Of a DNA stretch of 64,000 nt, positions 27,047-54,922 are shown one piece after another. The DNA comes from Minisyncoccota bacterium (GTDB taxonomy: Bacteria > Patescibacteriota > Minisyncoccia > UBA6257 > 2-01-FULL-56-20). The stretch covers positions 25,533-89,532 of the forward strand of contig JALHNY010000003.1 of the NCBI GenBank assembly GCA_022843285.1, given 5' to 3'. The translations under genes and the position numbers were made by a program. The notes beneath the pieces are model-generated. The model did no database searches. It saw only the letters and a list, made by a program, of their open reading frames with translations, and had not been told where the DNA came from. Positions within the stretch are counted from its first letter, which is position 1. Every line of letters begins with the position of its first letter.

Positions 27047-28153
27047 CTAGGAAACCAGGGGGGCGAGCACGTAGCGGTACGTCCCCTCTCCAGACCCGCG
27101 CAGCAGCGCGGGTTTGTCGACGTTGATGCCCATGGTCACGCGCTCGGCGGAAATAGCGCGCAGGCCGTCACTGAGCTGGCGCCAGTTGAAGGTCACGGCT
27201 GGGAAGGAACTCGTCACGTGGGCCTCCACGGATGTCGAGTGCGATCCGACCGCGTCACTGCCCGCAGAAATCGTCAGGGAAGCGTTTTCCCCCTCGCCGC
27301 TGGGCTCAATGGTGATCTCGCTGCCCTTAGCCGCGAACACGCTCGCGAGCTTGAGCGCTGCGGCGAGAGCTTCTCTGTTCACCGTGAACTCGGCAATGAA
27401 GCTGGGCGGGATGATCTGCTCGTAATCCGGGAACTGCGCCGAGATGAGGCGGGTGGTCACCTGCCAGCGCGGAGTCTCGAACGTAGCCTGGTGCGTCTCG
27501 AAGTAGCACGCGACGTCCTCGTCATCGTGTATGACGCGGGAGAGCTCTGAGGCTACCTTGGCGGGTATGAGCGCGCGGACGGATTTTTCTGGTAGCACCG
27601 CTCCGTCCACGGATGCCTCCGCGAGGCGGAAGCTGTCTGTTGCCACAAAACGCAGCATCCCTGCCTCTGTGGTGACGAGAACGGCAGCTAGCTCGGGTGA
27701 GAAGTCCGCGGCTCCCTGAGCGGCAAATGAGACCCGTGAGAGGGCCTCCCTGAACAGGGCACCCGGAATGGAGATCTGCAGCGCATCTGCGCCGCGAGTG
27801 GGGATGCTCGGAAAGTCATCTACGGGAGCACCCGCGAGCGTGCCGTTGTAGTGGTCCGTGGTGATGCCCAAGCCTGAACCCTGGGCCTCCAGTGTGACCC
27901 TCTCATCCGTGAGGGCACCCACGAGGCTGCCGAGGAGTGCGGTGGGTACGGATACCTTCCCGTGATCTACAACCTTGGCGGCCACGGTGGCGCGTACCGC
28001 GAGCTCGAGGTTGGTGGCGGTCAGTACGAGCTGGTCCCCCTCAGTCTCGAGGAGCACGTTGCGGAGCGCCGGGAGCTGGGCTCCCGAGCCGCTCGCACGC
28101 TCCACCAATCCCAGGGCTGCCGACAGGGTGTCGCGCAAAGTCACAGCTTTCAT
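27047..28153 (-). CDS. dnaN: DNA polymerase III beta subunit (sliding clamp)
   Basis: 368 aa, MKAVTLRDTLSAAL…, in the conserved position downstream of dnaA. Confidence 0.85.
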   Translation of the reverse strand: MKAVTLRDTLSAALGLVERASGSGAQLPALRNVLLETEGDQLVLTATNLELAVRATVAAKVVDHGKVSVPTALLGSLVGALTDERVTLEAQGSGLGITTDHYNGTLAGAPVDDFPSIPTRGADALQISIPGALFREALSRVSFAAQGAADFSPELAAVLVTTEAGMLRFVATDSFRLAEASVDGAVLPEKSVRALIPAKVASELSRVIHDDEDVACYFETHQATFETPRWQVTTRLISAQFPDYEQIIPPSFIAEFTVNREALAAALKLASVFAAKGSEITIEPSGEGENASLTISAGSDAVGSHSTSVEAHVTSSFPAVTFNWRQLSDGLRAISAERVTMGINVDKPALLRGSGEGTYRYVLAPLVS

Positions 28154-28278
28154 GCCGTAACTATAGTAGTAATAAATATATTGTTGTAGTTGTTAGTCCT
28201 GGGGATTCTGTGTACAAAATCCGTTGCCGATTTTAGGGGTAGGCGGGGGCTGGGAGTGCCGGTTTTTTGCCGTGTGGA
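28154..28278. other. dnaA-dnaN intergenic region with an AT-rich tract (candidate oriC DNA-unwinding element)
   Basis: The ~40-nt stretch ACTATAGTAGTAATAAATATATTGTTGTAGTTGTTAG is unusually AT-rich for this GC-rich genome. A DnaA-box-like TGTGGACTA lies at its dnaA-proximal end. Confidence 0.35.
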
Positions 28279-29622
28279 CTAGTGCTTGGAGAGCAGCTCA
28301 CGCACCCTGAATATCTTTTGGTTGAGGATTGCGTTCTGATCAGCTTCGCGTGCAATCTTCTCGTAAGAGTGGATAGCTGTGGTGTGGTCCCTCCCCAGCT
28401 TTTCCCCGATGGTCGGGTACGAGAGGTCAAGCATGTCGCGCAGGAGGAACATGGCAACCTGCCTCGGCTCCACAATTTCCTTGCGCCGCGAGCGGCCCAC
28501 CAGATCTTCCGTTGCGATGTTGTACACCTCAGCTACGGCGCTGATGACCTGCGTGTCGGTGACGGGCTTGGTGAGCGCGCGCATCGTTTTTTCAATGATT
28601 TCCTCGGCAATGGCAGCCGTGACCTCGCGGCCCCGCTTCTCCTGGAAGAACAGGAGCTTGGTGAGGATGCCCTCGAGCTCGCGGACGGACTTCTTCATCT
28701 TGCGGGCAATGACCTCCACCACGTCGTCCCCGAGGTGGCTAGATCGCTCGTCGAGCTTGCTGCGGATGATGGCTACCCTCGTCTCGAAATCGTACGCGGT
28801 AATGTCCGCGATCAGTCCGCCCTCAAATCGGCTGCGGAGGCGCTCCTCGAGGGTCGGGATGGCGTACGGGGGCCTATCGGACGAGATGATGATCTGCTTG
28901 TTCATCTCGTGGAGGGCGTTGAAGGTGTGGAAGAACTCCTCTTCGGTTTTGTCCTTTCCGCCGATGAACTGAATGTCGTCAATGATGAGGACGTCAGCTT
29001 CGCGGTACTTTTTTCGCATATCATCGGTGCGGCGGTTGCGGATGGACCACACGACGTCGTGCGTGAACTTCTCGCTCGTCATGTACTGCGGCCTCAGTGC
29101 CGGGTTCCGCTTCCTTATTTCGTTGCCGATTGCCTGAATGAGGTGAGTCTTGCCGAGACCCACTCCGCCGTACACGAAGAACGGGTTGTACTTGGTGCCG
29201 ACGTCATCGACGATGGCGAGCGCAGCAGCGTGGGCCAGCTCGTTCGATTGGCCCACGATGAATGAGTCGAGCGTGTAGCGCGTGTTGAGGCCAGTTGCCG
29301 CGTCAATCTTGAGATCGAGCTGCATTGAAGAAACCGGAACGTTAGCCTTTGCCGGACGCTTCGGAGCGGGAGCCGTGGAGCTGTTGATGACCACCTCGAT
29401 GTGCTTCACCTCGGGGTTCAGGGTGCGGACGATCCCCAATATGTCCTTCTCGTACTTGTCCTCAACCCATGACTTCGCGAAGGCGTTGTCCACCGCAACG
29501 CCGAGGGTGTCCCCAGAGAGGTGAGCCACGGTGGTGCTCTTCAGCCACATGCTGAAGTTGGTCCTTGAGATGCGCTTCTCCATCTCCTTGAGGACAGAAG
29601 ACCAGAGCTCGTTATGTTCCAT
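28279..29622 (-). CDS. dnaA: chromosomal replication initiator protein DnaA
   Basis: 447 aa with AAA+ Walker [11 protein letters not shown], Walker B, sensor motifs, and a C-terminal DNA-binding domain. Confidence 0.9.
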
Positions 29623-29768
29623 TTCGTGTGTTCAAGAGTGTCTGGGTGGTGGAGCGTGTTGGGACTATTGTATGGCCCGCAGGCCCCGCGTCAAAGTTTT
29701 CCACAGCCCCGAAATGTGGTCTGAATCGTCCATTTACAGCCAAATATGCCTCGTGTATGCTCTGCCCC

Positions 29769-29903
29769 ATGTCTCAGACCTACCAGCCCAAGAAGCGCAA
29801 GCGGGCGAGGACCCACGGGTTCCTCGTCAGGAGCGCCACGCCTGGTGGTCGTCGCGTCCTGGCGCGCCGCCGCCGCAAGGGTCGCGCAAAGCTCTCCGTC
29901 TAA
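29769..29903 (+). CDS. rpmH: 50S ribosomal protein L34
   Basis: [44 protein letters not shown], which is the in-frame tail of track ORF 29628..29903. Confidence 0.9.
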
Positions 29904-29924
29904 GGGCTCTGGTAACCTTTACCC

Positions 29925-30245
29925 ATGGTTCCCCGCTCCCTGCGGGCTGATCCCCGCGCGCTGCTCGCCGGGCAGGCCCAAGTAATCAGGCTCCCATGGG
30001 GTGTAGCCCGGTTCTCGCCCGGAAACACGGGTCTGGCGGTGGTAGTTCCGAAGAAAGCTGCAAAGCTATCCGTCGTGAGGCACCTGGCCAAGCGTCGCGT
30101 CGCGGGTGCGCTGCTGGGAAGCTTGCCGAATGGCTTCCAGGTCATGGTGACCCTCAACGCCGCGGGGGTATCCGCACGGGGAGAGAAGCTCCGGGCGTGG
30201 TGCCACGAGCTCGGGGAACGTATACTCCAATCCACCCATGCTTAG
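29925..30245 (+). CDS. rnpA: ribonuclease P protein component
   Basis: …GLAVVVPKKAAKLSVVRHLAKRRVAGAL… resembles the RnpA core. It sits in the conserved rpmH-rnpA-yidC order. Confidence 0.65.
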   Translation: MVPRSLRADPRALLAGQAQVIRLPWGVARFSPGNTGLAVVVPKKAAKLSVVRHLAKRRVAGALLGSLPNGFQVMVTLNAAGVSARGEKLRAWCHELGERILQSTHA

Positions 30246-32496: not shown

Positions 32497-32517
32497 GCTA
32501 AGTGCCCAAATTATAGC

Positions 32518-34118: not shown

Positions 34119-34157
34119 GATGCTAATTGTACCTTTTCCCGCTACCGGCTCCCAGCC

Positions 34158-34946: not shown

Positions 34947-34949
34947 CGT

Positions 34950-36671: not shown

Positions 36672-36673
36672 GG

Positions 36674-37339: not shown

Positions 37340-37371
37340 GGAGGTATTATCTGCGATGGAACTGCTGGATG

Positions 37372-37878: not shown

Positions 37879-37908
37879 GGCGCCTCCTGGGCGCTAGTCT
37901 ACCACGCT

Positions 37909-39000: not shown

Positions 39001-39009
39001 GGTTGCAGT

Positions 39010-41274
39010 TTAGCTAGTTCCCCAGAGCTGGTTAATCGCGTCCTGCTTCGTCTTCACCTCGCCCTTCGAGTCCACCGTCGACTGGAGCTTGGCGCGCGCC
39101 CTCTCGCGGCGGGTCTCGAAGTTGACGCTCTTCTCCAGCGTGTTGAGCATCGCCTTGATCTTCGTTTCGGTGGTGCGCTTGTGGTTCTTGAGGCCCTCAG
39201 CGTCGAGTTTGAGATCCTTGAAGTACGCTTCCCACTTCTTGTCGTCCCCGTTTGCCTTGTCCTCCTCAATCATCTTGCTGAGGAAGTCGAGCGTGCTGTC
39301 GATGTGGTCAATGGTGAGCGGGTTGATGTCACCAATTTTCTTGAGGGTGCCGGTGTTGATGGCGAGCGTGTTGAGCGCCTGCCCGAGCTGGACGCCGCCA
39401 TCGTCATCTTCCTTGGGGCCGAACATGGTGACCTCGTTGGCGATGTTGATGACGTTGTCTGGCTTGATGGCGCCGACGTAGCCCGCGATGGCTTCCTCCT
39501 TGGTGATGACGTCGCTGTCGTCTTTGGCGTCCTTGCGCTTCTTGAGCGGAGCAAACTCTGCCAGGCGAGGATCTGCCTCGAGGACGTCCTTGAGGTTGCC
39601 GGCGTCAGCCTGCCTCTTGAAGAGCTTCTCGAGCTTCTCCTTTTCGACCTGCTCAGCTTTTTTCTTCTTTTCAGGGTCTTCGGTCTCCCCCATCTCGCCC
39701 TTGCTGCGGGTCTTGGCTGCGGTTGAGATGCGCTCATCCATCTGCTTCTTGATGTCCCCGAGGCCCTTCTTGTCTTTGAGGAGCTCGAGAATGGCCGCCT
39801 CGCGGTCCGGGTTCGCAGCGAGCGAGCCACTGCTGAGGCGATCCAGCTCCTTGAGGAGGGCGTCCTTGGTGAGGCCGCCGAGGTCAGTCTTGTACCCCTT
39901 GATGCGCTCCTCGGGACCCTTGCGATCTACGACACCCGCTTTGGCAATGGCAGAGCCGGCCGCGCCCAGGCCGACCATGCGAGCGGCGCGGTTCCCCGAG
40001 GCGAGGGTGGAGAGTCGTGATCCGAAGCGCTGGAGCCTCGAGTTGCCGTCCGCATCCTTGCCCGAGCTGCGGGCACGATCGAGCGCGCGCAGGCCAGCGT
40101 TCTTGGAGCGTGTCGTGACCTGTCGCTTCACGGAGTTGCCCGCGGATTCCATTATTTTCACACCGGTGCCCGCTACGCCGATGCCCATTTTGTGCGCGAG
40201 GTAGAGGCCTCCCCACAGTGCGCCGCCGATGATGCCAGCGGTCATGATTTGATCCACCATCGGCTGCAGGAAGCTGCCCAGAATTCCAGAGAACGCGTTG
40301 AGCACGCCCTTGTTAGCAGATGCCGCTGTTCCCAGTCCGCCTGATGCGTTGATGCCACCAGAAGCGGCGAACACGTCGGCAATGCGGAGACCCAGGTACA
40401 GGAAGAACAGGGCTACCGGGCCGAAGAAGGTCCACTTGATGAACAGGTTCATCCACTTGGATACGTACGACTGGGAGAACGGGAAGATCCAAGCGACCCA
40501 GACACCGGGGAGCATGACCAGCAGCAGTCCTAACCAGATGTACCTCAAGAAGAAAGCTACGATCATCACCCCGAGGAACAGGAGCACCTGGAAAATGAGG
40601 GCAACCGTGATGAAGACGCTGACAATCATCGCGTACATCTGGCCAGCGTTGGCAGCGGCATCGCCAAACTGCTTAGCCCACTCGTCCTTCGGGTCACCCT
40701 TGATGAAACCCTGCTGCGGCTGCGTTGCCGTTGCGAGCCTGTCGGCAAACTCAAAGAACTGGGTGTTGCCGTCTCCGGTGGGCACGGACGCGTTCAGGAA
40801 GAACATGGATAGCTGATCTGAGAACGACAGGGCGGTACCAGCGAGAACCAAGCTGAAGTTCACGCCAACCGCGGCGATGACAATCTTGAGGAGCAGCTGC
40901 CTGACGCCGTACGTGTTCCAGCGGACAATCGTGGCAACAGCCATCGTGATGACGGCAGCGACGAAGAGGATGTTGGCGAATGCCAGGACAATAGAGAAGC
41001 CAACCGATACCGTCGGTGAGTTAACAATGTCGAGGTTGAGCCGCATGACGACGCCCAGGAAGAAAGCCTCGATTGCAATGAAGAGCGCTCCAATTGAAGC
41101 AATGGCCCACGAAATTGCGTACGTCGCGTAGAGGAAGGCACTGAAGATGCCACCCTTGACCGACTCGAAGAGGTCAAAGATGGACCAAGCAGCGTGAGCC
41201 TGCTCGGGAACGAGCAGGAGCAGCGCGCCCAGTGCCGCAGCAGTGCCGAAGCCAAGGATCCTCGCTCTATTCAT
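39010..41274 (-). CDS. VirB6/TrbL-like polytopic T4SS membrane protein with a long charged C-terminal extension
   Basis: Signal-like N-terminus, at least seven TM helices with a conserved-looking GxxxW region, then a ~380-aa Lys/Glu/Asp-rich tail. The start is set at the internal Met (MNRARILGF…), 4 nt from the upstream stop. Confidence 0.5.
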   Translation of the reverse strand: MNRARILGFGTAAALGALLLLVPEQAHAAWSIFDLFESVKGGIFSAFLYATYAISWAIASIGALFIAIEAFFLGVVMRLNLDIVNSPTVSVGFSIVLAFANILFVAAVITMAVATIVRWNTYGVRQLLLKIVIAAVGVNFSLVLAGTALSFSDQLSMFFLNASVPTGDGNTQFFEFADRLATATQPQQGFIKGDPKDEWAKQFGDAAANAGQMYAMIVSVFITVALIFQVLLFLGVMIVAFFLRYIWLGLLLVMLPGVWVAWIFPFSQSYVSKWMNLFIKWTFFGPVALFFLYLGLRIADVFAASGGINASGGLGTAASANKGVLNAFSGILGSFLQPMVDQIMTAGIIGGALWGGLYLAHKMGIGVAGTGVKIMESAGNSVKRQVTTRSKNAGLRALDRARSSGKDADGNSRLQRFGSRLSTLASGNRAARMVGLGAAGSAIAKAGVVDRKGPEERIKGYKTDLGGLTKDALLKELDRLSSGSLAANPDREAAILELLKDKKGLGDIKKQMDERISTAAKTRSKGEMGETEDPEKKKKAEQVEKEKLEKLFKRQADAGNLKDVLEADPRLAEFAPLKKRKDAKDDSDVITKEEAIAGYVGAIKPDNVINIANEVTMFGPKEDDDGGVQLGQALNTLAINTGTLKKIGDINPLTIDHIDSTLDFLSKMIEEDKANGDDKKWEAYFKDLKLDAEGLKNHKRTTETKIKAMLNTLEKSVNFETRRERARAKLQSTVDSKGEVKTKQDAINQLWGTS

Positions 41275-43639
41275 CGAGGGTGGGCAGCGGGATGTTGCAG
41301 GCTCGGTCGCGCAGGTTCTCCTGTGCGGCATCGCGGAGGCCATCAATCTGAGCGACGCGAATGGCAACGCGTGTCAGTACCGAGGCCATGCTCGAGTTGA
41401 TGACGTCCGCCTCGTTCATGTACGTGGCAATGCCCATGGCGGATGTGGAGCTGGCGACGTTGGAGCGGAGTGTGGCCAGCGTCCTCCCCGTGCGGGAGAG
41501 CTCAGTGCGGTCAGTTTCGTTGGTCGGTGCGATCCGATCAATTGCGCCAATGCGCTGGTTCGCGTCCGAGGCGTAGGCGGTGCAGGTGAGGGCCACCGAG
41601 CGCAGCACCGGAACGGTCGAAGACGCCGTGGTGGGCCAGGTTGCCGCAGAGCTCGATGCTTGGTTGATGCGGCTTTCGAGGCTGCCAATGAGCTGGAGAG
41701 CCTGGCTCCTCAGTCCATCGATGTCGGGGTCAGGGTCCCCGCTGCCCGGGAGCGTGCTGGTGCCCGTCGTGCTCGTCGTGCTGGGACCCGGGCCACCGCC
41801 GTCTCCGTTGAACAGGCCCAAGATGCCACGCTCGGCCATGCCGACCAGGCGGGTGATGGCGGCATCAATGAGGACGCCAATGAGCCCCGCCAGATCTTCT
41901 GCGTTGACGATGTTGTCGAGGGAAGCGCCGAGAGCTTTCTCGACCTGGCCAGCCACAGCGCCACCTGGAGTGGTCTGCTGCATGCCACCGGGGCGACAGA
42001 CTTTCACCTCGCAGTACCTGCCCGGTGGCAGTGAAGAGGGAACCGTAGTCGTGCCGCGCGTGATGGTGCTGACCGAGAAGCAGCCGCGTGGACCTATGCC
42101 GACGACGCCCGAACTGCTGGATTGGTTCATGGTTTGGTACTGACCCTCCGTCATGATCTCGAGGTCGTAGCTCACGCACCGCTCCATCCCCTTGTACCCC
42201 TGGTTGGCGGCAGCATTTTGGCTCGCGGCCTCAGCGCTAGCCTGGGACTGTCGGGCAATTTGCTCGTTGGCTAGGATGACAGCTCCGAAGACGTTGTTCT
42301 CGGGGAGGACGGAGCTCAGGAAGCCTGCCCAGCCGCCCGCGCGGAAATCGTCATAGAAGGCGCGGATGTTCTGCACAACCTGATCTAGGGTGCAGGTAAT
42401 CGGGGTTTGGCGCGTTTCGGGTATGAAGGCGCGAGCTCCTCCCGAGGCGAACGTTGAGAAGTTGGTACACAATTGGGGCGCAATCATGGTGAGGGCTTGG
42501 TTGGCAGCCCCCACGCCAGCATCCGTCAGGAACTTCTTCCAGTTCGTGATGAACTGGGGCTTGCCGCCGCCCTGGACCCACTTGATGGTCTGCTGAATCA
42601 TGCGGCCCACAATCTGGTTCTTGAGGATTTGGGTCGCAATTTTTCTGGCCCACTCCACGAGCGTCTGCGTCCAGGTACCGGCAATGCCAACGCCGTTGAA
42701 GATGCTGACGATGATGTGCTTGATGTCCGTGAAAACGAACGCGTGAGCGGAGGAAACGCCGAGCATCGACGCAATCATGAAAGGCTCGCGCGCTTGCGCG
42801 AACATCTCGGGAGCCTTCTCCTCGAACTGCGTTACCGCAAGGTGTACCCGAGCTTCCTCCTGTGCCCGCAGCTCGGGGAACTTTGCGGTGAAGACCACCG
42901 CCTTGAGCGGATCGGTCGCGTAGTTGATGTCGCTGAGCTGCCGGTTGAGCTCGAGGTACGTGAGGAGTGAGCGGTGCATGTCCGCTGCTGGCTCCGGGAC
43001 GGTCGCATTGTAGAGTGCCTCCTGCGCATCGGAAAAGATGAAGTTCGAAGCTTGCATGGAGGCTTCGGTCGGCTCTCCGTAGGAAGCGCGAGCCATCAGG
43101 CCGGAGATGCCGCGATCGCTGTTGATCTTCGACATGGTTTGGTCGAGGGTCGTGAAGTACTCGTCGACCTGCGTCGTCGTGTAGTTGCGCACCACTTTCA
43201 CCCTGCCCTCATCGATGGCGTACGTCGTGGGGGCCATCGCCGCGTCGGTGACGTACTCGTCAACGAATGACTCGATGTCGATCGGGGGTGCGATGCCGTA
43301 CCCCTCTTCCGGCCCGTTCGGGTTCTGCTTCACGAACTCGTACGCCAGGCCCTTGGCGAGAGTATCCGTGTAGTTCTCCCGGGTTGTGATGGTCGGGGAG
43401 AACTCTTTCGCTAGGTCGTAGCCTTCCACGACGCGCCCGCCGGGGATTTCTTCAATGAGCGCCGTGTCTCCAATCTTGGGGACCTGCGACTCGGCATTTT
43501 TTTGCACCGTGCGCGCGATGAGGGCGTCCCCCTCGCTGCGCTGGCGTGCGAGGCTCGTGACAGCGAGCGTTGCAGAGCCAGCCAGAAGGGCGAGGACCAA
43601 GAAGGTCGTTACGAGCCGCCGGAGATCGTGACTCTGCAT
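41267..43639 (-). CDS. large (790 aa) N-terminally membrane-anchored extracytoplasmic protein, hypothetical (first gene of the T4SS-like cluster)
   Basis: Single N-terminal TM helix (LVTTFLVLALLAGSATLAV) and a long Ser/Thr/Gly-containing ectodomain. No family recognised. Confidence 0.45.
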   Translation of the reverse strand: MQSHDLRRLVTTFLVLALLAGSATLAVTSLARQRSEGDALIARTVQKNAESQVPKIGDTALIEEIPGGRVVEGYDLAKEFSPTITTRENYTDTLAKGLAYEFVKQNPNGPEEGYGIAPPIDIESFVDEYVTDAAMAPTTYAIDEGRVKVVRNYTTTQVDEYFTTLDQTMSKINSDRGISGLMARASYGEPTEASMQASNFIFSDAQEALYNATVPEPAADMHRSLLTYLELNRQLSDINYATDPLKAVVFTAKFPELRAQEEARVHLAVTQFEEKAPEMFAQAREPFMIASMLGVSSAHAFVFTDIKHIIVSIFNGVGIAGTWTQTLVEWARKIATQILKNQIVGRMIQQTIKWVQGGGKPQFITNWKKFLTDAGVGAANQALTMIAPQLCTNFSTFASGGARAFIPETRQTPITCTLDQVVQNIRAFYDDFRAGGWAGFLSSVLPENNVFGAVILANEQIARQSQASAEAASQNAAANQGYKGMERCVSYDLEIMTEGQYQTMNQSSSSGVVGIGPRGCFSVSTITRGTTTVPSSLPPGRYCEVKVCRPGGMQQTTPGGAVAGQVEKALGASLDNIVNAEDLAGLIGVLIDAAITRLVGMAERGILGLFNGDGGGPGPSTTSTTGTSTLPGSGDPDPDIDGLRSQALQLIGSLESRINQASSSAATWPTTASSTVPVLRSVALTCTAYASDANQRIGAIDRIAPTNETDRTELSRTGRTLATLRSNVASSTSAMGIATYMNEADVINSSMASVLTRVAIRVAQIDGLRDAAQENLRDRACNIPLPTLDE

Positions 43640-46873: not shown

Positions 46874-46886
46874 TTTTTATTTTTTC

Positions 46887-47220
46887 TTAATATGTCGCAA
46901 AATATTGATAAACATGTTTATCAGAGGGTAAATGTTTGTCGACAAACATTTATGTGCAATTTGGTAAAAAGTGTTTAGCGCTAAACACTTTTGTTTCTAA
47001 AATCCGGTAATTTTTGATAAAACACCCTGACAAACATGTTTGTCAGGGTGTTCGATGTTTAGCGCTAAACAAAAATGCTGTTTTTAGATCTAAATTAGGG
47101 AAAAATGTTTAGCGCTAAACAAAATTTCGCAAACAAAGTGTTTAGCGCTAAACAAGTATTTACTGATAAACATGTTTGTCAGGGATTAATAATATGTCGC
47201 GAAATATTGTTTATCAGGGA
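46887..47220. repeat. AT-rich island with an array of 16-30 bp palindromes built on TGTTT/AAACA half-sites
   Basis: TGTTTAGCGCTAAACA occurs four times (~46973, 47055, 47106, 47139). TGATAAACATGTTTATCA / ACACCCTGACAAACATGTTTGTCAGGGTGT / TGATAAACATGTTTGTCA occur at ~46906, 47027 and 47165. AAATGTTTGTCGACAAACATTT is at ~46935. The flanks share a similar sequence (AATATGTCGC[A/G]AAATATTG…TTATCAG[A]GG at 46889 and 47190). Confidence 0.75.
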
Positions 47221-47358
47221 AAATGAAATATTTACAGCTGAATTGCCGTAATAAAGGTACCTAGAGAGGGTTTGCCGGATTGCCAAGGTGTCCGCCCCTT
47301 GGCAATAATTCGTGCGTACAAAACTAAATAGGTACAACTCAATAACAACTTAATAGAC

Positions 47359-48693
47359 ATGCTAAATATCAAAGATATCGGTAAGGCTCTGAAGCAGATT
47401 GCTGATGAGAAGGGCCTCCCCCAAGACAAGGTCCTAGAGGCCATCGAATACGCCATCGCCACCGCGTACAAAAAGGAGTACGGCGGCAAGAGCGAGATCA
47501 TCAAAGCGAACCTGGACATCAACTCCGGGGCTCTGACCTTTTGGAAGGAAAAGACCGTCGTGGACGAGACCATCGTTCGCTTCGTCACCCCCGAAGAGGA
47601 GGCCGCAGAGGAAGAGGCGCGCACGCTCGCACTTCAGCAGGGACTTCGCCCCGCTTCACCTGATGCAGAGGTTGATGAGGATGGGCAGCCCAAGCTCCCG
47701 CGGTACAACCCGGAGCGCCACATGCTCCTCGATGAGGCGAAGGCCATCAAGCCAGACGCAAGCATCGGAGACGTGCTGACCTTCCCGCTTGAAGCTCGTG
47801 AGGACTTCGGGCGCATCGCTGCGCAGGCAGCCAAGCAGGTTGTCATGCAGCGCCTCCGTGAGTCTGAGCGCTCACTCATCCTGGATGAGTGGCGCGGCAA
47901 GGAGGGGCAGATTGTTTCGGGCACCGTCCAGCGCTACGAGCGTGGCCACGTGTACATCGACTTCGGTCGAGCGACGGGCGTCATGTTCTACAACGAGTCG
48001 ATTCCGGGTGAGCACTACCGCACCGGAGATCGTCTGCGCTTCTACGTGCTCGCCGTGCAGGAGGACACCCGCATGCCGGGCATCATCCTGTCCCGCTCGC
48101 ACCCGATGTTCGTGCAGAAGCTCTTTGAACTCGAGGTGCCGGAACTCGCAGAGGGCGCCGTCGAGATTAAGGGCATCGCACGTGAGGCGGGGAGCCGCAC
48201 GAAGGTTGCCGCGCAGTCTCACGCGCCAGGTGTGGATCCGATCGGCTCCTTCGTCGGTCAGCGCGGCACGCGCGTCATGGCTGTGACCAACGAGCTCGGA
48301 CAGGAGAAGATCGACATCATCGAGTGGTCTGAGGAGCCGGAGGTGTTCATCGCCAACTCGCTGTCACCGGCGAAGGTGAACGTGGTGGAAACCATGGATC
48401 GCCGCGAGGCGCGCGTCTTCGTTCCGGAAGATCAGCTCTCACTGGCAATCGGTAAGGGCGGGCAGAACGTGCGCCTCGCCGCGAAGCTCACCGGATGGAA
48501 GATCGACGTTCGTTCGAGCTCTGATCCGGATGCAACTCAGGAGGGTGGCGTCGCCACCAGCGAGGGGGAGACGCTCGCTGACGACGTGGACGAGGCGGTA
48601 GACATTACCTCGGCAGATCCTGAAGAGCTCGCAGAGGAGGGAGCAGAGATTGCCGCAGAGGAGGAGGTGGTCGAAGAAGAGAAGCAGGCCTAA
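47359..48693 (+). CDS. nusA: transcription termination/antitermination factor NusA
   Basis: N-terminal domain, S1 domain and two KH domains (…GKGGQNVRLAAKLTGWKIDV…); acidic C-terminus. Confidence 0.9.
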   Translation: MLNIKDIGKALKQIADEKGLPQDKVLEAIEYAIATAYKKEYGGKSEIIKANLDINSGALTFWKEKTVVDETIVRFVTPEEEAAEEEARTLALQQGLRPASPDAEVDEDGQPKLPRYNPERHMLLDEAKAIKPDASIGDVLTFPLEAREDFGRIAAQAAKQVVMQRLRESERSLILDEWRGKEGQIVSGTVQRYERGHVYIDFGRATGVMFYNESIPGEHYRTGDRLRFYVLAVQEDTRMPGIILSRSHPMFVQKLFELEVPELAEGAVEIKGIAREAGSRTKVAAQSHAPGVDPIGSFVGQRGTRVMAVTNELGQEKIDIIEWSEEPEVFIANSLSPAKVNVVETMDRREARVFVPEDQLSLAIGKGGQNVRLAAKLTGWKIDVRSSSDPDATQEGGVATSEGETLADDVDEAVDITSADPEELAEEGAEIAAEEEVVEEEKQA

Positions 48694-48699
48694 CGAGCA

Positions 48700-49236
48700 A
48701 TGAACGTCATCCACGGCCTAGGAGCAGGGGAAAAGGCTCCAGAGATTGTCACCGGAGTCATTGAGATTCCGAAGGGCAGCCAGAACAAGTACGAGTACGA
48801 TGAGGAGAGGGGAGTTTTCACTCTCGATCGCGTGCTCTACTCGCCGATGCACTACCCGCTAGACTACGGTTTCATCCCGGGTACGCGATCGGAAGACGGG
48901 GATCACCTCGACGTGATGGTCATCGGCTCTGATCCGGTGTTCACGGGGTGCGTCGTTGACGTGCGGCCGGTCGGCCTCCTCGAGATGATCGACAGCGGCG
49001 AGAAGGACTACAAGATTCTCGCGGTCCAGGTGCAGAACCCTCGCCTGGCGCACCTGAGAGACATCCAAGACGTTGAAGCATGGAACGGGCACCTCCTGAA
49101 AGAAATTGCCCACTTCATGGAGTCCTACAAGCACCTCGAGGGCAAGAAGGCGGAAGTCGCAGAATGGCTCGATGCCAAGGCAGCCCAGAAGGAAATTGTG
49201 GACGCCATGGCAGCATTTGCAGCAGAATCAAAGTAA
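48700..49236 (+). CDS. ppa: inorganic pyrophosphatase
   Basis: …[22 protein letters not shown]… family I PPase motifs. Confidence 0.9.
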
Positions 49237-49240
49237 AGTA

Positions 49241-49825
49241 ATGAACCTCATCCCAACAGTTATCGAGAAATCCCAGTTCGGAGAGCGGGCGTACGACATC
49301 TACTCGCGCCTGCTCAACGAGCGCATCATTTTCCTGGGCGGCCCCATCTACGATGATGTAGCCAACACGATCATCGCGCAGCTCCTGTTCCTGGACTACG
49401 CGGATTCTAAGAAGGACATTCACCTGTACATCAACAGCCCCGGTGGTTCGGTGGTGTCCGGCATGGCCATCTATGACGTGATGCAGTACGTGAAGGCAGA
49501 TGTCTCAACCATCTGCGTCGGCATCGCCGCTTCAATGGGGGCGACGCTCCTGGCCGCCGGTGCGAAGGGCAAGCGGCACGCTCTCCCTAACGCGGAGGTG
49601 ATGATCCACCAGGTCATGAGTGGCGGCATCGAGGGGCAGGCTACGGACATTGAAATTGCGGCGAAGCACATCCTGCACACCAAGGAGCGCATGAACGAGA
49701 TTCTCGCGAAGCACACGGGGCAGACTGTCGCGCGCATTGCCAAGGACACCGACCGTGACAACTACATGTCCGCCGAGGAGGCGAAAAAGTACGGAATGAT
49801 CGACTCGGTTATCAAGACGCACTAG
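49241..49825 (+). CDS. clpP: ATP-dependent Clp protease proteolytic subunit
   Basis: [25 protein letters not shown]…GAASMG… with the Ser-His-Asp triad context. The true start is the internal ATG of track ORF 49106..49825. Confidence 0.9.
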
Positions 49826-51759: not shown

Positions 51760-51790
51760 ACGTGCGATTTTAGCACGCCAGAACGTTCGG

Positions 51791-51861
51791 AGCGGGTAAG
51801 GGGAATCGAACCCCTATCTTCACCTTGGAAGGGTGACGTACTACCACTATACGATACCCGC
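51791..51861 (-). tRNA. tRNA-Gly (anticodon UCC)
   Basis: The reverse complement GCGGGTA…TCACC-CTTCCAA-GGTGA…AGGGG-TTCGATT-CCCCT-TACCCGC-T folds as a cloverleaf. Confidence 0.85.
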
Positions 51862-51950
51862 GTGGTGCCGTAATACTACGAAAACCGAGAAAAAAGGCTA
51901 GGTTACGTTCCCTTACCACCCCGGGCTTTCAGCCGTACAATGCCCTCGAA

Positions 51951-52023
51951 GCACCCATAGCTCAACGGTTAGAGCAGTCGTCTTATACACGACCGGTTCC
52001 TGGTTCGAGTCCAGGTGGGTGCA
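51951..52023 (+). tRNA. tRNA-Ile with a UAU anticodon (AUA-decoding)
   Basis: GCACCCA-TA-GCTC-AACGGTTA-GAGC-A-GTCGT-CTTATAC-ACGAC-CGGTT-CCTGG-TTCGAGT-CCAGG-TGGGTGC-A. All stems pair perfectly, with U33 and A37 flanking anticodon TAT. Confidence 0.75.
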
Positions 52024-52027
52024 CCCG

Positions 52028-52759
52028 CTACGGATTGGTCGCCGGGGTCGAGGTGGTCGGCTCTCCCTCGAGCTCTAGATCAACGGTCGTGGTCGCCGTT
52101 TCGGTGGTACTGGTGCTCGTGGTTGCCATGGGAGCCTCAAAGAAAATTCTGCGCGAGGTGCTGCGGCTGCGCCCGAGGAGCTTGGATGCCTCCACGGTGA
52201 AATCGTTAGGGGTGCCGGGCTGGAGGTTCACCTCCTTCTCCCACGTGCCCGCTTCGGTGAGCGGAACCGCCTCGCCGTTAATCGTCACGCGACTGCCGGG
52301 CGTTGCGGTGCCAGCAATCTTTGCCGGGCTCTCCGTATACACGATGCCATCGCGGTCCGGATCGGTGATGGCAACGTCTGGCAAGCCGAGAATGGCCGCG
52401 AAGCGGAATCCGACGAACGTGAGCAGGAGCAAAATGACGGGCACGCCCCAGAGGAGCCAGCGTGGCGCGCGGTTGCGGGAGAAGCGGTTGCGGGGGAGGA
52501 GGTCTCCGGTGCCGGAGCTCTTCACGGGTTCGGCGCGCTTGATCTGCTGCCACCAGGCCTCGCCATCGAAATCGAGCAGGGTGCCGAGCTTGACGAGGTA
52601 GCCGTGCAGGTAGGGGGCGGCGGGGAGGTTCGAGTGGTCACCCTGGGCGAGCTGCTCGAGGACGGCGATGGGCACGCCAGTGGAATCGGCGGCCTGCTGG
52701 AGGGAGAGCTTGCGTTCGCGGAGCTTGGTGAGGAGGAGTGTGGAGAGGTCTTCGTGCAT
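52028..52759 (-). CDS. RodZ-like protein (N-terminal XRE-type HTH, single TM, extracytoplasmic domain, Thr-rich tail)
   Basis: HTH segment …LSLQQAADSTGVPIAVLEQLAQGD…, a TM helix WLLWGVPVILLLLTFVGF, then a C-terminal domain. Confidence 0.5.
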   Translation of the reverse strand: MHEDLSTLLLTKLRERKLSLQQAADSTGVPIAVLEQLAQGDHSNLPAAPYLHGYLVKLGTLLDFDGEAWWQQIKRAEPVKSSGTGDLLPRNRFSRNRAPRWLLWGVPVILLLLTFVGFRFAAILGLPDVAITDPDRDGIVYTESPAKIAGTATPGSRVTINGEAVPLTEAGTWEKEVNLQPGTPNDFTVEASKLLGRSRSTSRRIFFEAPMATTSTSTTETATTTVDLELEGEPTTSTPATNP

Positions 52760-54922
52760 TTAGGCTTCCAGGAAATCCTCGATCTTATCCATGAAAACCT
52801 CACGGGGTTTCGCGCCGTCTCCGGGGCCGATGAGGTCCCTGGCCTCCATGATGTCCAGGAGGCGGGCAGCACGGGCGTACCCGACCTTCAGGCGGCGCTG
52901 GAGCAGAGAAGCTGAGGCTTTCTGGGCCATCCCGACGGTCGTGACCGCTTCGTGGAGAAGATCGTCTTCTTCCTCATCTTCCATGAAGGTGTCGAGGTTG
53001 TCGAGGGAGTTGGCGGCGGGGCGCTCCTCGCCGTCCTCCACCTCTGTTTCGGGCTGCACCACGTTGTTGTGCTGCTTCACGAAGTCGGTGACCTTGGTGA
53101 TTTCGTCTTCGGTCAGGTAGGCGCCCTGGATGCGCTTCGGCTGCGTGTGCTGCGGGGAAAGGAAGAGGAGGTCTCCGCCGCCGAGGAGCTTCTCGGCGCC
53201 AGAGCCATCGAGGATCGTGCGCGAGTCGATCTGGCTCGCCACCTGCAGCGCGATGCGGTTCGTGATATTCGCCTTGATGAGGCCGGTGATGACCTCAACG
53301 GACGGGCGCTGCGTGGCGAGGATGAGGTGGATGCCGGTCGCGCGCGCCATCTGCGCGAGGCGGATGATGTATCCCTCGACCTCGCGTCCGAAGGTAGCCA
53401 TGAGGTCCGCCATCTCGTCGATGACGATGACGATGTACGGCATGGCGCTGTCCTTGTGCTTGGCGTTGTAGCTGGCGATGTCACGGCTGCCCACCTGGGC
53501 GAAGAGCTCGTAGCGCTGCTCCATTTCCTGGATAGCCCAGCGGAGGACGGCGAGCGCTTTCTTGTTCTCCGTCACCACGGGGAGCGCGAGGTGGGGGAGC
53601 GAGGCGTACATGGAGAGCTCCACGCGCTTGGGATCCACGAGCGCGAGGCGGAGCGTCGCTGGGGAGTTCTTGAACAGCAGCGAGGTGATGAGGGAGTGCA
53701 CGAAGATGGACTTTCCAGATCCGGTCGCGCCGGCAACGAGGAGGTGGGGCATCTTGGCGATGCTCGCAAAAATGGGGTCGCCGGATACGTCGCGCCCGAG
53801 CGGGATGCCGAGCGGGCCGGAAGCCATGAACTCGGGGTACTGCAGCAGGCTGCCGAGGCGCACCATGGCCGCCTGCTTGTTGGGCACCTCGATGCCCACG
53901 AGGCTCTTGCCCGGAATGGGAGCCTCGATGCGGATGGGGTGCGCGGCTAGCGCGAGCGAGAGATCCTGGCCGAGGTTGGTGATGCGCGTGAGCTTCACGC
54001 CCTCTGCTGGCTTGAGCGAGTAGCGCGTGACCTTGGGGCCGACCGTGATCTCGCCCATGTCCACGGCGATGCCGAAGCTCTCGAGCGTGCGCTTGATGAT
54101 GTTCGCGTTCGCGCGCAGGTCACCGGTGGTGGGCTTATCCGCACCCGAGTTGAGGAGATCGAGAGGCGGCGGGGTGTAGTCCGCGGGGAGCCCCTGCAGC
54201 ACCTCACCCTTGCGCTTCTTGGGTGCGGCAGCTTCCTTCCTGCTCGAAGAGGGCGAGGGTTCGTCGTCGAGCTCCTCTCCATCGGCGGCAACCTCGACCT
54301 CCTCTTCAATGACTTCTTCCTCGTACTCCTCCTCCTCGGGTTCTTCCTCGTAAGCCTCTTCGTACTCCTCCTCGTCCACGCTCTCAGCTTCGGTCTTCGT
54401 GAAGAGCGCCGCGATGCGAGACCTCAAATTGAGCGGGCGGTTGGTGGCGATGAGCACACCCGCAAAGAGGATGAGCACGTTGATGACGCCCGCGGCGAGC
54501 CTCCCGAAGGGGATGGTGAGGAAGCCGAAAATCATGCCGAGGTAGCCACCGGCGAGGTGCGCGTACACCTCGAGGAGCGCGAGGCTGGCGAGGCCAGCGA
54601 GGCTCGCGCCGAGCAGGACGGTCTTGAGGATGTTGCGGCGCTCGGAGAACAGGAGGATGGCCGCTGATCCGAGGAGCAGGACGGGCAGCACGAGGTACCC
54701 GAAGCCGAAGAGGGCCGTGACGACATCAGAGATGAACGCTCCGGCGGGGCCAGCCTGCTGCCACTTTGCGAGGAGCAGGAGGGCGGCGACGCCGATGAGG
54801 CAGATTGCCACGACGCTCGCGCGGGTGTCCGGGTGCAGGTCCTCGTACACCTCCTTGATGGGTCTGATGGCGTGCTTGCGCAGGCGAGAGGGTGAGGATT
54901 CCGTGTCCTTCTTTTTAGCCAT
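52760..54922 (-). CDS. ftsK: DNA translocase FtsK
   Basis: N-terminal four TM helices, an acidic linker, a RecA-like motor with Walker A GATGSGKS, and a C-terminal gamma winged-helix (…LLDIMEARDLIGP…). Confidence 0.85.
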   Translation of the reverse strand: MAKKKDTESSPSRLRKHAIRPIKEVYEDLHPDTRASVVAICLIGVAALLLLAKWQQAGPAGAFISDVVTALFGFGYLVLPVLLLGSAAILLFSERRNILKTVLLGASLAGLASLALLEVYAHLAGGYLGMIFGFLTIPFGRLAAGVINVLILFAGVLIATNRPLNLRSRIAALFTKTEAESVDEEEYEEAYEEEPEEEEYEEEVIEEEVEVAADGEELDDEPSPSSSRKEAAAPKKRKGEVLQGLPADYTPPPLDLLNSGADKPTTGDLRANANIIKRTLESFGIAVDMGEITVGPKVTRYSLKPAEGVKLTRITNLGQDLSLALAAHPIRIEAPIPGKSLVGIEVPNKQAAMVRLGSLLQYPEFMASGPLGIPLGRDVSGDPIFASIAKMPHLLVAGATGSGKSIFVHSLITSLLFKNSPATLRLALVDPKRVELSMYASLPHLALPVVTENKKALAVLRWAIQEMEQRYELFAQVGSRDIASYNAKHKDSAMPYIVIVIDEMADLMATFGREVEGYIIRLAQMARATGIHLILATQRPSVEVITGLIKANITNRIALQVASQIDSRTILDGSGAEKLLGGGDLLFLSPQHTQPKRIQGAYLTEDEITKVTDFVKQHNNVVQPETEVEDGEERPAANSLDNLDTFMEDEEEDDLLHEAVTTVGMAQKASASLLQRRLKVGYARAARLLDIMEARDLIGPGDGAKPREVFMDKIEDFLEA

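What the first reader, a model, noticed from the sequence alone, without database searches (positions are those of the whole stretch)
46874..47358. AT-rich 480-bp island upstream of nusA packed with perfect palindromes on TGTTT/AAACA half-sites
In a ~62% GC genome this intergenic region is strongly AT-rich and contains four copies of the perfect 16-bp palindrome TGTTTAGCGCTAAACA. It also contains three copies of the AAACATGTTT-centred palindrome, each extended to 18-30 bp (for example ACACCCTGACAAACATGTTTGTCAGGGTGT), and one AAATGTTTGTCGACAAACATTT. This is about eight operator-like inverted repeats in ~300 bp, framed by a shared flank (AATATGTCGC[A/G]AAATATTG…TTATCAG[A]GG at 46889 and 47190). 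The half-site is shared, but spacing and orientation differ: TGTTT-N6-AAACA versus AAACA-TGTTT. This suggests dimeric DNA-binding proteins binding in two registers, or a REP/BIME-like structured repeat. The location is neither at oriC nor at an obvious mobile element, and no known operator consensus (LexA, Fur, CIRCE, cre, NrdR, DnaA box) matches. It could be a multi-operator regulatory hub for the nusA-ppa-clpP operon, a nucleoid/replication-associated site (for example a terminus or parS-like region), or a genome-wide repeat family.
Basis: seen in the sequence. Interest (0 to 1): 0.7.

Follow-up and report, generated by a model that had tools for sequence, protein, structure and literature searches.

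The report
parS-like palindrome array near the origin
An AT-rich 480-bp spacer upstream of nusA in an uncultured Patescibacteria (CPR) genome holds a conserved array of protein-binding palindromes resembling the bacterial centromere site parS, 17 kb from dnaA; it may be a centromere-like site of a kind not described before, or an unusually large operator array.

Summary
The region 46874-47358 is 33% GC in a 62.5% GC window. It holds five TGTTT-N6-AAACA 16-mers, three AAACATGTTT-centred palindromes and two flanking GTCGCRAAATATTG boxes. None of these occurs elsewhere in the 64 kb.

All the palindromes are built from one half-site, TGTTTRKC, placed head-to-head (16-mers) or tail-to-tail. The same island sits at the same locus in eight or more related Paceibacterota/Liptonbacteria genomes (NusA 65-90% identical). 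The motif cores are invariant there, while spacers, copy number and the central hexamer change. About 70 more distant relatives lack the island.

- **Not REP, RNA or guide array:** it is not a REP element, a known RNA, or a CRISPR/TIGR array.
- **Not oriC:** it has no DnaA boxes. dnaA, dnaN and rpmH lie 17.3 kb away in the same window.
- **parS likeness:** the 16-mer matches parS at 12 of 16 positions (identical arms and central CG). No canonical parS and no ParA/ParB gene was found in the window.

My best reading is a phased, multi-dimer DNA-protein platform. It is most likely a centromere-like, origin-proximal site (about 0.4). A transcription-factor operator array for the nusA-ppa-clpP operon is the main rival (about 0.3). 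The binding protein is unknown.

The parts
46874..47358 (.). AT-rich intergenic island (33% GC) between the M23 peptidase gene and nusA
46888..46907 (+). Left G-box TAATATGTCGCAAAATATTG (core GTCGCAAAA at 46894-46902)
   Evidence: Direct repeat D5. The same box bounds the island in L002 and L004, and two copies occur in Liptonbacteria L209.
46906..46923 (.). P1: tail-to-tail palindrome TGATAAACA|TGTTTATCA
46929..46952 (.). S16-1: TGTTTGTCGACAAACA (46933-46948, half-sites B-B) inside a 24-bp palindrome
   Evidence: (I18)
46972..46987 (.). S16-2: TGTTTAGCGCTAAACA (half-sites A-A); the palindrome extends over 46967-46992
   Evidence: (I15)
47021..47052 (.). P2: 32-bp perfect palindrome AACACCCTGACAAACA|TGTTTGTCAGGGTGTT. 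A same-species short-read assembly (L001) breaks here.
   Evidence: (I7)
47056..47071 (.). S16-3: TGTTTAGCGCTAAACA
47106..47121 (.). S16-4: TGTTTAGCGCTAAACA
47139..47154 (.). S16-5: TGTTTAGCGCTAAACA (TGTTTAGCGATAAACA in the same-species contig L001)
47163..47184 (.). P3: CTGATAAACA|TGTTTGTCAGGG, tail-to-tail palindrome with one mismatch
   Evidence: (D4)
47190..47215 (+). Right G-box TAATATGTCGCGAAATATTG followed by a lone half-site TGTTTATC (47208-47215)
   Evidence: D5
47243..47285 (+). C-boxes TTGCCGTA (47243) and TTGCCGGA (47272), abutting the -35-like TTGCCA. The same TTGCCGNA motif is repeated 4-10 times in the islands of L206, L209 and L109.
47280..47309 (+). Promoter-like TTGCCA-18 nt-AATAAT. 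It is also an inverted repeat, ATTGCCAAGG..CCTTGGCAAT (47279-47306). It is conserved as TTGCCT-18-AATAAT in L002 and L004 and is the likely nusA promoter.
47310..47358 (+). Conserved nusA leader (..GTACAAAAC.TAAATAGGTACAACTCAATAACAA..)
47359..49825 (+). nusA (47359-48693), ppa (48700-49236) and clpP (ORF to 49825): the operon downstream of the island
27047..29904 (.). Origin region for reference: dnaN(-), dnaA(-), rpmH(+). The dnaN-dnaA spacer has a 40-nt AT-rich stretch. A DnaA-box-like TTTTCCACA is at 29697.

Best explanation
The island is a DNA-level platform that assembles many copies of one sequence-specific DNA-binding protein, possibly with one or two partner proteins. I think it most likely acts as a centromere-like, origin-proximal organising site, the functional analogue of a parS cluster. 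Because of where it sits, it would also influence the adjacent nusA-ppa-clpP promoter.

**Shown.**
- The unit is an 8-bp half-site, TGTTTRKC. Two half-sites head-to-head make the 16-mers. Two tail-to-tail make the CTGACAAACA(N0 or N4)TGTTTGTCAG palindromes that bracket the array and, in some genomes, interrupt it.
- The cores are under strong purifying selection, while spacers, copy number and the central bases turn over.
- Arrays grow by local duplication.
- 16-mer centres tend to lie whole helical turns apart.
- The island lies about 17 kb from dnaA.

**Inferred.** Dimers occupy 5-9 sites on one face of bendable A/T-tract DNA and build a higher-order complex. That complex marks the origin region for segregation or condensin loading, as ParB-parS or RacA-ram do. 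It may also repress or insulate neighbouring promoters, as KorB and plasmid centromere-binding proteins do.

The binding protein is unidentified. It could be a ParB/Noc/KorB-type protein with altered specificity at the central bases, or an unrelated helix-turn-helix or ribbon-helix-helix (RHH) protein.
For: **1. Real sites under selection.**
- 72 of 72 half-sites from 7 genomes keep TGTTT and C8, with position 6 = A/G/C and position 7 = G/T.
- Between the window, L002 and L004, only 6-16% of spacer 8-mers are shared, against 56-93% of motif 8-mers. The flanking genes are 68-82% identical.

**2. Conserved at the same locus.** The island is present in L002, L004, L206, L208, L209-211 and L109 (NusA 65-90% identical). 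It survived the loss of comM, the dksA-like gene and yraN on its flanks in the window clade.

**3. Array behaviour typical of centromeres or iterons rather than fixed operators.**
- There are 4-7 16-mers per genome.
- Liptonbacteria strains differ (6 versus 7 copies, with 43-bp tandem units).
- 16-mers are homogeneous within a genome but differ between genomes (AGCGCT, AGCGAC, CGCGCT).
- The distance from the nearest site to the downstream start codon varies from 53 to 220 bp.

**4. Helical phasing.** 16-mer spacings give R = 0.40 and Rayleigh p about 0.009 at a 10.5-bp period. The palindrome-to-16-mer distance is 26-27 bp (one 29) in the window clade.

**5. parS likeness.**
- The 16-mer TGTTT-AGCGCT-AAACA matches consensus parS, TGTTTCAC-GTGAAACA (PMC7383237), at 12 of 16 positions. 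The Liptonbacteria form TGTTTCGCGCGAAACA matches at 14 of 16.
- A scan of 185,579 species genomes for two TGTTTNNCGNNAAACA sites 10-40 bp apart returned canonical parS for 281 of 300 sites.
- Those canonical tight arrays are likewise locally AT-rich, with 35-50 bp spacing.

**6. Origin-proximal.** The island is 17.3 kb from dnaA in the window and 17.5 kb in the L004 genome. parS sites are almost always close to oriC (PMC7383237). No canonical parS with up to 3 mismatches exists in this 64-kb origin region.

**7. Clustered extra sites.** The only extra sites seen in about 150 kb of related sequence lie 4-5 kb from the main array (L004 at 14249, L206 at 14231).
Against: - **No ParA or ParB found.** None was found in the 64-kb window or within about 10 kb of the island in any relative (Pfam; tblastn). 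By contrast, 23 of 32 canonical tight parS arrays lie within 1.5 kb of parA/parB. I could not establish whether this clade has ParB at all.
- **Centre differs from parS.** The centre (AGC/GTC instead of CAC) differs at the positions ParB and Noc read most specifically. Different centres coexist within one array (L206, L208), which is unlike the strict ParB-parS match.
- **Tail-to-tail palindromes.** These have no counterpart in ParB systems.
- **Housekeeping genes near origins.** Housekeeping operons such as nusA are enriched near origins anyway, so closeness to dnaA is weaker evidence than it looks.
- **Phasing statistic.** It uses related, non-independent genomes.
- **Patchy distribution.** About 70 Paceibacterota lack the array at nusA, which is unexpected for an essential centromere unless the site has moved or changed there.
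Confidence: 0.4

Rival explanations
1. Operator array for a clade-specific transcription factor. The factor controls the nusA-ppa-clpP operon and, ancestrally, the divergent comM / yraN-nusA promoters. Dimers bound at phased sites loop or coat the upstream region to repress or activate.
For: - The island is always immediately upstream of (yraN-)nusA-ppa-clpP.
- In L206, L208, L209 and L109 the last site lies 53-101 bp upstream of the yraN start. In L109 TAAACA-17-TTTAAT would make the 16-mer overlap a -35 element.
- In those genomes the island lies between comM and yraN, a functionally linked transformation pair (bioRxiv 10.1101/2024.02.06.579203). That would suit a shared control region.
- The 16-mer has the 5-N6-5 layout with TGT...ACA ends and AAA/TTT flanks seen in CRP-family sites (own knowledge).
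- Both extra sites (L004, L206) are 50-90 bp upstream of a start codon.
Against: - Eight or nine sites spread over 300 bp is unusual for an operator.
- In the window clade the nearest site is 110-150 bp upstream of the likely -35 element.
- Copy number and position relative to the promoter are not conserved.
- The island persisted after comM and yraN were lost.
- No other promoter in 64 kb carries a site.
- About 70 other Paceibacterota have nothing comparable upstream of nusA.
- No candidate regulator gene is adjacent.
Confidence: 0.3
2. The hairpins work at the RNA level. The palindromes would be transcribed as stem-loops: terminators or insulators between the M23 gene and nusA, or a NusA-sensing attenuator leader.
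For: - The tail-to-tail palindromes have 8-16-nt perfect arms. Their outer parts differ between species yet stay complementary (ACACCC/GGGTGT, AACGG/CCGTT, AATCC/GGATT).
- The left palindrome of L002 scores as an intrinsic terminator after the M23 gene.
- Changing the centre of the palindrome from 0 to 4 nt is easy for a hairpin loop.
- NusA autoregulation through terminators in its own leader is known in E. coli and B. subtilis (own knowledge).
Against: - The 16-mers show no extended or compensatory pairing. Most hybrid 16-mers pair only 5 bp, and outer extension is mostly 0.
- 16-mers occur in both orientations within one array (L002).
- Sequence, not just pairing, is invariant.
- The palindrome centre is uniform within each clade (0 nt in 9 of 9, 4 nt in 8 of 8). 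That points to protein geometry rather than a free loop.
- The promoter-like element lies downstream of the array in the window clade.
- No Rfam family reaches its threshold.
Confidence: 0.08
3. The island is the replication origin or its unwinding element, displaced 17 kb from dnaA.
For: - It is by far the most AT-rich stretch in the 64 kb around dnaA.
- It has multiple repeat classes, including helically spaced TTGCCGGA repeats in relatives.
- The dnaA-rpmH spacer is only 148 bp and has a single DnaA-box-like site.
- A skew breakpoint fit is only slightly worse at 45-47 kb than at its best position.
Against: - The island has no DnaA box with up to 1 mismatch, in the window or in 8 of 9 related islands.
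- The DNA-contacting residues of DnaA domain IV are canonical (RDHTT..H, and the R399 equivalent). The protein should therefore read TTATCCACA-type boxes, not TGTTTRKC.
- GC skew is positive on both sides of the island, and the best breakpoint is 34-35 kb.
- The dnaN-dnaA spacer has its own 40-nt AT-rich stretch plus two 2-mismatch boxes.
Confidence: 0.05
4. A REP/MITE-like or other mobile repeat, or the scar of an integrated element.
For: - It is an AT-rich island in a GC-rich genome, bounded by 20-bp direct repeats.
- The extra 16-mer plus palindrome pair in L004 looks like an insertion of about 75 bp relative to the window.
- A short-read contig breaks inside the island.
- The neighbourhood contains T4SS-like genes.
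Against: - There are no further copies in 64 kb.
- The position is fixed and syntenic across genomes with NusA 65-90% identical.
- No transposase, integrase or RAYT gene is nearby.
- There are no matches in 2.9 million viral contigs.
- The motif cores are under purifying selection.
Confidence: 0.04

Closest known systems
Chromosomal parS clusters bound by ParB (Spo0J)
   Same: - A 16-bp palindrome with identical TGTTT/AAACA arms and a central CG.
- Several copies.
- Origin-proximal (17 kb from dnaA).
- Tight canonical arrays are also AT-rich, with 35-50 bp spacing.
   Different: - Positions 6-7 of each half-site are AG, GT or CG instead of CA, giving 12-14 of 16 matches.
- No parAB genes are adjacent or anywhere in 64 kb.
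- Additional tail-to-tail palindromes and G- and C-boxes are present.
- Mixed centres occur within one array.
Noc-NBS and the ParB/Noc specificity switch (PMC7383237)
   Same: NBS (TATTTCCC-GGGAAATA) shows that a ParB-family protein can be retargeted by changing two bases per half-site. The Saccharibacteria locus L094 carries TGTTTCCCGGGAAACA, a parS/NBS hybrid.
   Different: NBS sites are dispersed around the chromosome and avoid the terminus. They are not a single array. No Noc-like gene was seen here.
KorB operators (O_B, TTTAGCSGCTAAA) of IncP plasmids
   Same: The arms TTTAGC/GCTAAA are identical to the A-type half-sites. KorB is a ParB-family protein that is both a partition protein and a promoter-proximal repressor (own knowledge).
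   Different: O_B is 13 bp with a central base, whereas here the arms abut (12 bp). The relatives use hybrid centres (AGCGAC). This is a chromosomal context with no korA, korB or incC.
Plasmid centromeres made of iterated sites (F sopC, R1 parC, and the pSM19035 omega heptads in direct and inverted orientations)
   Same: - Many copies of a short site in one AT-rich intergenic stretch.
- Copy-number variation and tandem-unit growth (43-bp units in Liptonbacteria).
- One half-site used in several orientations.
- A dual centromere and promoter-control role.
   Different: No partition ATPase or small centromere-binding protein gene is adjacent. Sites are separated by variable spacers rather than being contiguous.
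RacA-ram sites of Bacillus subtilis
   Same: These are non-ParB, origin-proximal inverted repeats serving as a second centromere-like system (own knowledge).
   Different: ram sites are GC-rich 14-mers spread over hundreds of kb. They are not a 300-bp array.

Membership tests
ParABS (parS site) | 16-bp palindrome matching TGTTNCACGTGAAACA within about 2-3 mismatches | tested here: not met
   No match with up to 3 mismatches in the window. The 16-mers differ at 4 of 16 positions (2 of 16 in Liptonbacteria L209).
ParABS (parS site) | Located close to oriC | tested here: met
   The island is 17.3 kb from dnaA in the window and 17.5 kb in GCA_964484655.1.
ParABS (parS site) | Cognate ParB (and usually ParA) encoded in the genome | tested here: inconclusive
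   None was found in 64 kb (Pfam) or in the flanks of any CPR locus (tblastn).
ParABS (parS site) | ParB binds the site and loads or spreads in a CTP-dependent way | not testable with these tools
   This needs biochemistry or ChIP.
Tight parS array cassette (array-parA-parB) | Array lies directly upstream of parA-parB | tested here: not met
   23 of 32 canonical arrays with 3 or more sites lie within 1.5 kb of parA/parB. Here the neighbours are the M23 peptidase gene and nusA.
KorB O_B operator | 13-bp TTTAGC(G/C)GCTAAA | tested here: not met
   The arms are identical but have no central base (TTTAGCGCTAAA). Relatives have TTTAGCGACAAA.
REP/BIME elements | Many copies dispersed in intergenic regions genome-wide | tested here: not met
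   All copies in 64 kb are inside the island. Relatives carry them at the syntenic locus. The whole genome was not available.
oriC | Cluster of DnaA boxes next to an AT-rich unwinding element | tested here: not met
   The island is AT-rich but has no DnaA box with up to 1 mismatch. The DnaA DNA-reading residues are canonical.
oriC | Strand-composition switch at the site | tested here: inconclusive
   Skew is positive on both sides. The best breakpoint is 34-35 kb, and 45-47 kb fits only slightly worse.
CRISPR / TIGR guide arrays | Regular period with variable spacers and an adjacent cas or tas (Nop-domain) gene | tested here: not met
   Spacing is irregular (25-96 bp). Spacers are duplicated in Liptonbacteria. 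No such gene is nearby.
CRP/FNR-type operator | TGTGA-N6-TCACA (or a family variant) read by a Crp-family regulator | tested here: inconclusive
   The 5-N6-5 layout and TGT/ACA ends are shared, but the arms are TGTTT. No Crp-family gene is in the window (Pfam calls).
Known RNA family (Rfam) | Match at the family's gathering score | tested here: not met
   the best score is 32.7 bits against a threshold of 140, with hits on both strands.

The most novel reading that the evidence does not exclude
This Paceibacterota/Liptonbacteria clade uses a re-specified centromere. It would be a third natural specificity class of the parS/NBS family (TGTTT-RKCGMY-AAACA), concentrated in a single origin-proximal array with bracketing tail-to-tail sites. 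It would be read either by a divergent ParB-type clamp encoded away from the site or by a non-ParB protein. That would make it the first chromosome-segregation site defined for the Candidate Phyla Radiation.
Probability: 0.3. Interest if true: 0.75.

Novelty: new variant of a known kind. Interest (0 to 1): 0.55.

Why it matters
Almost nothing is known about how the ultra-small, uncultured CPR/Patescibacteria organise and segregate their chromosomes or regulate core genes.

A conserved, easily recognised DNA platform next to the origin gives a concrete handle. The island can be used as bait for DNA-affinity capture or DAP-seq with candidate proteins from the MAGs. It can also be used to test heterologous focus formation or plasmid stabilisation.

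If the binder is a ParB relative, the natural series CAC, CGC, AGC/GTC at the specificity positions would extend the ParB/Noc model of how DNA-binding specificity evolves.

If the binder is a transcription factor, this would be one of the first defined cis-regulatory systems in CPR. It would control nusA-ppa-clpP and, ancestrally, the ComM/YraN transformation pair.

Tried and rejected
- **oriC:** rejected for the reasons given under rivals.
- **GC-skew breakpoint regression:** inconclusive.
- **Known RNA families:** nothing in Rfam at gathering or E-value thresholds.
- **TIGR-Tas arrays, known from CPR (PMC12045711):** rejected because there is no 36-nt period, no dual spacers and no Nop-domain gene.
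- **Coding potential:** the 48-aa ORF at 47105-47251 has no family and is not conserved. No remnant of yraN, the dksA-like gene or comM is present in the window.
- **Viral contigs:** no array.
- **First genome-wide pattern scan:** it was too permissive.
- **Metagenome scan with NusA:** it returned only distant relatives (39-65% identical). All lacked arrays.
- **Candidate binder in the window:** Pfam and NCBIfam scans of about 55 ORFs found none. The HTH_25 protein at 52028-52759 looks like RodZ.
- **Literature:** searches for the motif strings and for ParB/parS in Patescibacteria returned nothing.
- **Motifs compared from memory and set aside:** LexA, Fur, CIRCE, CtsR, ClgR, PadR, the 434 operator, MatP, SlmA, dif and boxA all differ in spacing or in the arms.
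- **Promoter reading of the palindromes (CTGACA as a -35 element):** not above the shuffle expectation, and the geometry is not conserved in L206/L208.
Full report
**Observation.**
- Region 46874-47358 is 33% GC in a 62.5% GC window. Only two other, shorter stretches of the 64 kb fall below 45% GC.
- The island contains four exact TGTTTAGCGCTAAACA (46972, 47056, 47106, 47139). The expectation is 0.01 per window. It also contains one TGTTTGTCGACAAACA (46933).
- There are three AAACATGTTT-centred palindromes: 46906-46923, the 32-bp perfect palindrome 47021-47052, and 47163-47184.
- Two copies of TAATATGTCGCRAAATATTG (46888 and 47190) frame the array.
- No TGTTT-N6-AAACA or AAACATGTTT occurs anywhere else in the window, even allowing mismatches.
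- Upstream is an M23 peptidase gene. Downstream are nusA, ppa and clpP.

**Organism and wider context.**
- NusA and DnaA homologues place the window in Patescibacteria/CPR, class Paceibacterota, near Candidatus Liptonbacteria.
dnaN is at 27047-28153, dnaA at 28279-29622, followed by rpmH, rnpA and yidC.
- The island is therefore 17.3 kb from dnaA. In the related genome GCA_964484655.1 the distance is 17.5 kb.
- Between the origin and the island lie a T4SS-like gene cluster, ksgA and uvrD.
- No ParA, ParB or obvious regulator is encoded in the 64 kb.

**Anatomy.** Comparison with relatives shows that every palindrome is built from one 8-bp half-site, TGTTTRKC.
- *16-mers ("S16").* Two half-sites head-to-head give the 16-mers. 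The window has AGC·GCT four times and GTC·GAC once. L002 and L004 carry the non-palindromic hybrid TGTTTAGCGACAAACA in both orientations. L206 and L208 mix all combinations. Liptonbacteria use TGTTTCGC.
- *Tail-to-tail palindromes ("P").* Two half-sites tail-to-tail give CTGACAAACA-TGTTTGTCAG. These bracket the array and sometimes interrupt it. Their centre is 0 nt in the window clade (9 of 9) and 4 nt in L206, L208, L209 and L212 (8 of 8).
- *Invariance.* Across seven genomes, 72 of 72 half-sites keep TGTTT and the C at position 8.
- *Other motifs.* A G-box (ATGTCGCAAAATA) and TTGCCGNA repeats recur in the islands.
- *Likely nusA promoter.* In the window clade one TTGCCGGA abuts a conserved TTGCCA/T-18-AATAAT element (47280-47309), the likely nusA promoter. 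A conserved leader follows it.

**Evidence of function.**
- Between the window, L002 and L004, spacer 8-mers are shared at 6-16% and motif 8-mers at 56-93%. The flanking genes are 68-82% identical. The motif cores are therefore selected while the rest drifts.
- The island is present at the same locus in genomes whose NusA is 65-90% identical: L002, L004, L206, L208, L209-211 and L109. In the last four lineages it lies between comM/dksA-like (minus strand) and yraN(UPF0102)-nusA.
- The window clade has lost comM, the dksA-like gene and yraN, yet kept the island.
- Copy number varies from 4 to 7. Liptonbacteria strains differ by one unit and show 43-bp tandem units. This is growth by local duplication.
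- Centre-to-centre distances between neighbouring 16-mers cluster near 32, 42 and 52 bp. The Rayleigh test gives R = 0.40 and p about 0.009 at a 10.5-bp period, with n = 29 values from related genomes. The palindrome-to-16-mer distance is 26-27 bp in the window clade.
- About 70 more distant Paceibacterota (NusA 39-65% identical) have no repeats or palindromes upstream of nusA. L212/L213 retain only the P sites and carry a LAGLIDADG gene in the spacer.

**What it is not.**
- *REP/BIME.* All copies are in one locus. Two relatives each have one extra site 4-5 kb away.
- *A known RNA.* No Rfam family reaches its threshold.
- *A TIGR or CRISPR-like array.* The spacing is irregular, there are no variable dual spacers, and there is no Nop-domain gene.
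- *oriC.*
  - The islands lack DnaA boxes, apart from a single box in L212.
  - The DNA-reading residues of DnaA are canonical.
  - Skew is positive on both sides, although a breakpoint fit cannot place the origin precisely.
  - The dnaN-dnaA spacer offers its own AT-rich stretch.
- *Mainly an RNA hairpin array.* The 16-mers show no compensatory extension and occur in both orientations. The P elements do have long arms that covary, and in L002 the left one scores as the terminator of the M23 gene. A secondary hairpin role for the P elements is therefore possible.

**Comparison with parS.**
- Consensus parS is TGTTTCAC-GTGAAACA, and parS is almost always near oriC (PMC7383237).
- The 16-mers share both arms and the central CG, giving 12 of 16 matches and 14 of 16 in Liptonbacteria.
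  - 281 of the 300 sites were canonical parS.
  - The CPR loci were L109 (the same island) and L094. L094 is a Saccharibacteria locus with TGTTTCCCGGGAAACA/TGTTTGTCGGGAAACA and many TGTTTAACA direct repeats around tRNA-Pro.
- Canonical arrays with three or more sites are also AT-rich with 35-50 bp spacing, but 23 of 32 lie within 1.5 kb of parA/parB. No ParA or ParB lies near any CPR island.
- The window has no canonical parS with up to 3 mismatches.

**Interpretation.** That this is a selected, multi-site DNA-protein platform is well supported (about 0.85). Its function is inferred.
- *Centromere-like, origin-proximal organising site (0.4).* I favour this because of the array behaviour, the parS likeness, the closeness to dnaA, the clustering of the extra sites, and the lack of fixed geometry relative to a promoter.
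- *Transcription-factor operator array (0.3).* The main rival is an operator array for nusA-ppa-clpP and, ancestrally, for the ComM/YraN transformation pair (bioRxiv 10.1101/2024.02.06.579203).
- The two are not exclusive. KorB and plasmid centromere-binding proteins do both.
- RNA hairpins (0.08), oriC (0.05) and a mobile repeat (0.04) are minor alternatives.

**Novelty.** No paper in the searchable library contains these motifs or discusses parS in Patescibacteria. I class the island as a new variant of a known kind, a centromere or operator-type array. The binder is unidentified, which keeps the score moderate.

Noticed in passing
window 27047-30945: Replication-origin gene set: dnaN(-), dnaA(-), rpmH(+), rnpA(+), yidC(+). 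The dnaA-rpmH spacer is only 148 bp, with one DnaA-box-like TTTTCCACA (29697). The dnaN-dnaA spacer (28154-28278) has a 40-nt AT-rich run and two boxes with 2 mismatches, and is the probable oriC.
   Followed up: partly
window 31354-43639: A block of minus-strand genes with T4SS-like components: a TraG/VirB4-like ATPase at 34950-36671, PrgI at 37372-37878, and two proteins of about 790 aa without Pfam hits (TrbL_3 in the L002 homologue). It lies between the origin and the island and is syntenic in L002, L004 and L206.
   Followed up: partly
L094 4050-4770 (Saccharibacteria contig CAYNAP010000017.1): Two AT-rich arrays flank tRNA-Pro and lie next to a yraN (UPF0102) gene. They hold about ten direct repeats of (GA)ATGTTTAACAA at roughly 13-bp spacing, plus the 16-mers TGTTTCCCGGGAAACA, TGTTTGTCGGGAAACA and TGTTTGTCGAGAAACA. 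This may be a related system in a different CPR class. The repeat also contains the boxA-like string TTTAACAA.
   Followed up: partly
L004 14249-14290 and L206 14231-14278: A single extra 16-mer plus palindrome or half-site lies 4-5 kb from the main array, on the far side of tyrS in both genomes even though tyrS is inverted between them. It is absent from the window. In L004 it looks like an insertion of about 75 bp between tRNA-Gly and tyrS.
   Followed up: partly
L212/L213 4830-5470: In this lineage (NusA 67% identical) the island has the tail-to-tail palindromes but no 16-mers. It contains one perfect DnaA box (TTATCCACA at 4887) and a LAGLIDADG homing-endonuclease ORF in the spacer.
   Followed up: no
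L206 6990-9918, L209 2745-5877: In relatives, comM and yraN are transcribed divergently from the island. They encode the helicase/nuclease pair recently implicated in resolving the transformation D-loop. The window clade lacks both genes, at least within 64 kb.
   Followed up: partly
window 51951-52025: tRNA-Ile with a UAU (tat) anticodon, next to tRNA-Gly(tcc). This is an uncommon way for bacteria to read AUA, which is usually done by a lysidine-modified CAU tRNA.
   Followed up: no
L001 5143-10012 versus window 51760-52760: A contig from the same species (identical NusA) carries a type I restriction-modification cluster (hsdM, hsdS) after tyrS. The window has tRNA genes and the RodZ-like gene there. 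This is strain-level variation right next to the operon.
   Followed up: no
window 1117-1651: A tmRNA gene (1117-1483) is followed by the second AT-rich stretch of the window (1426-1651, minimum 37% GC). It contains no TGTTTRKC sites.
   Followed up: no
loci L006-L125 (genome-contig scan): Tight arrays of 3-7 canonical parS sites at 35-50 bp spacing, in locally AT-rich DNA about 85-300 bp upstream of parA-parB, are common in Collinsella, Lachnospiraceae, Streptomyces and others. One Nitrosopumilus-labelled contig (L070) also has one.
   Followed up: partly
window 47279-47306: The likely nusA promoter doubles as a 10-bp inverted repeat, ATTGCCAAGG/CCTTGGCAAT. The outer ATTGCC/GGCAAT is invariant in L002 and L004, and the inner pairs differ. 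It could be another operator or a 5' hairpin.
   Followed up: partly
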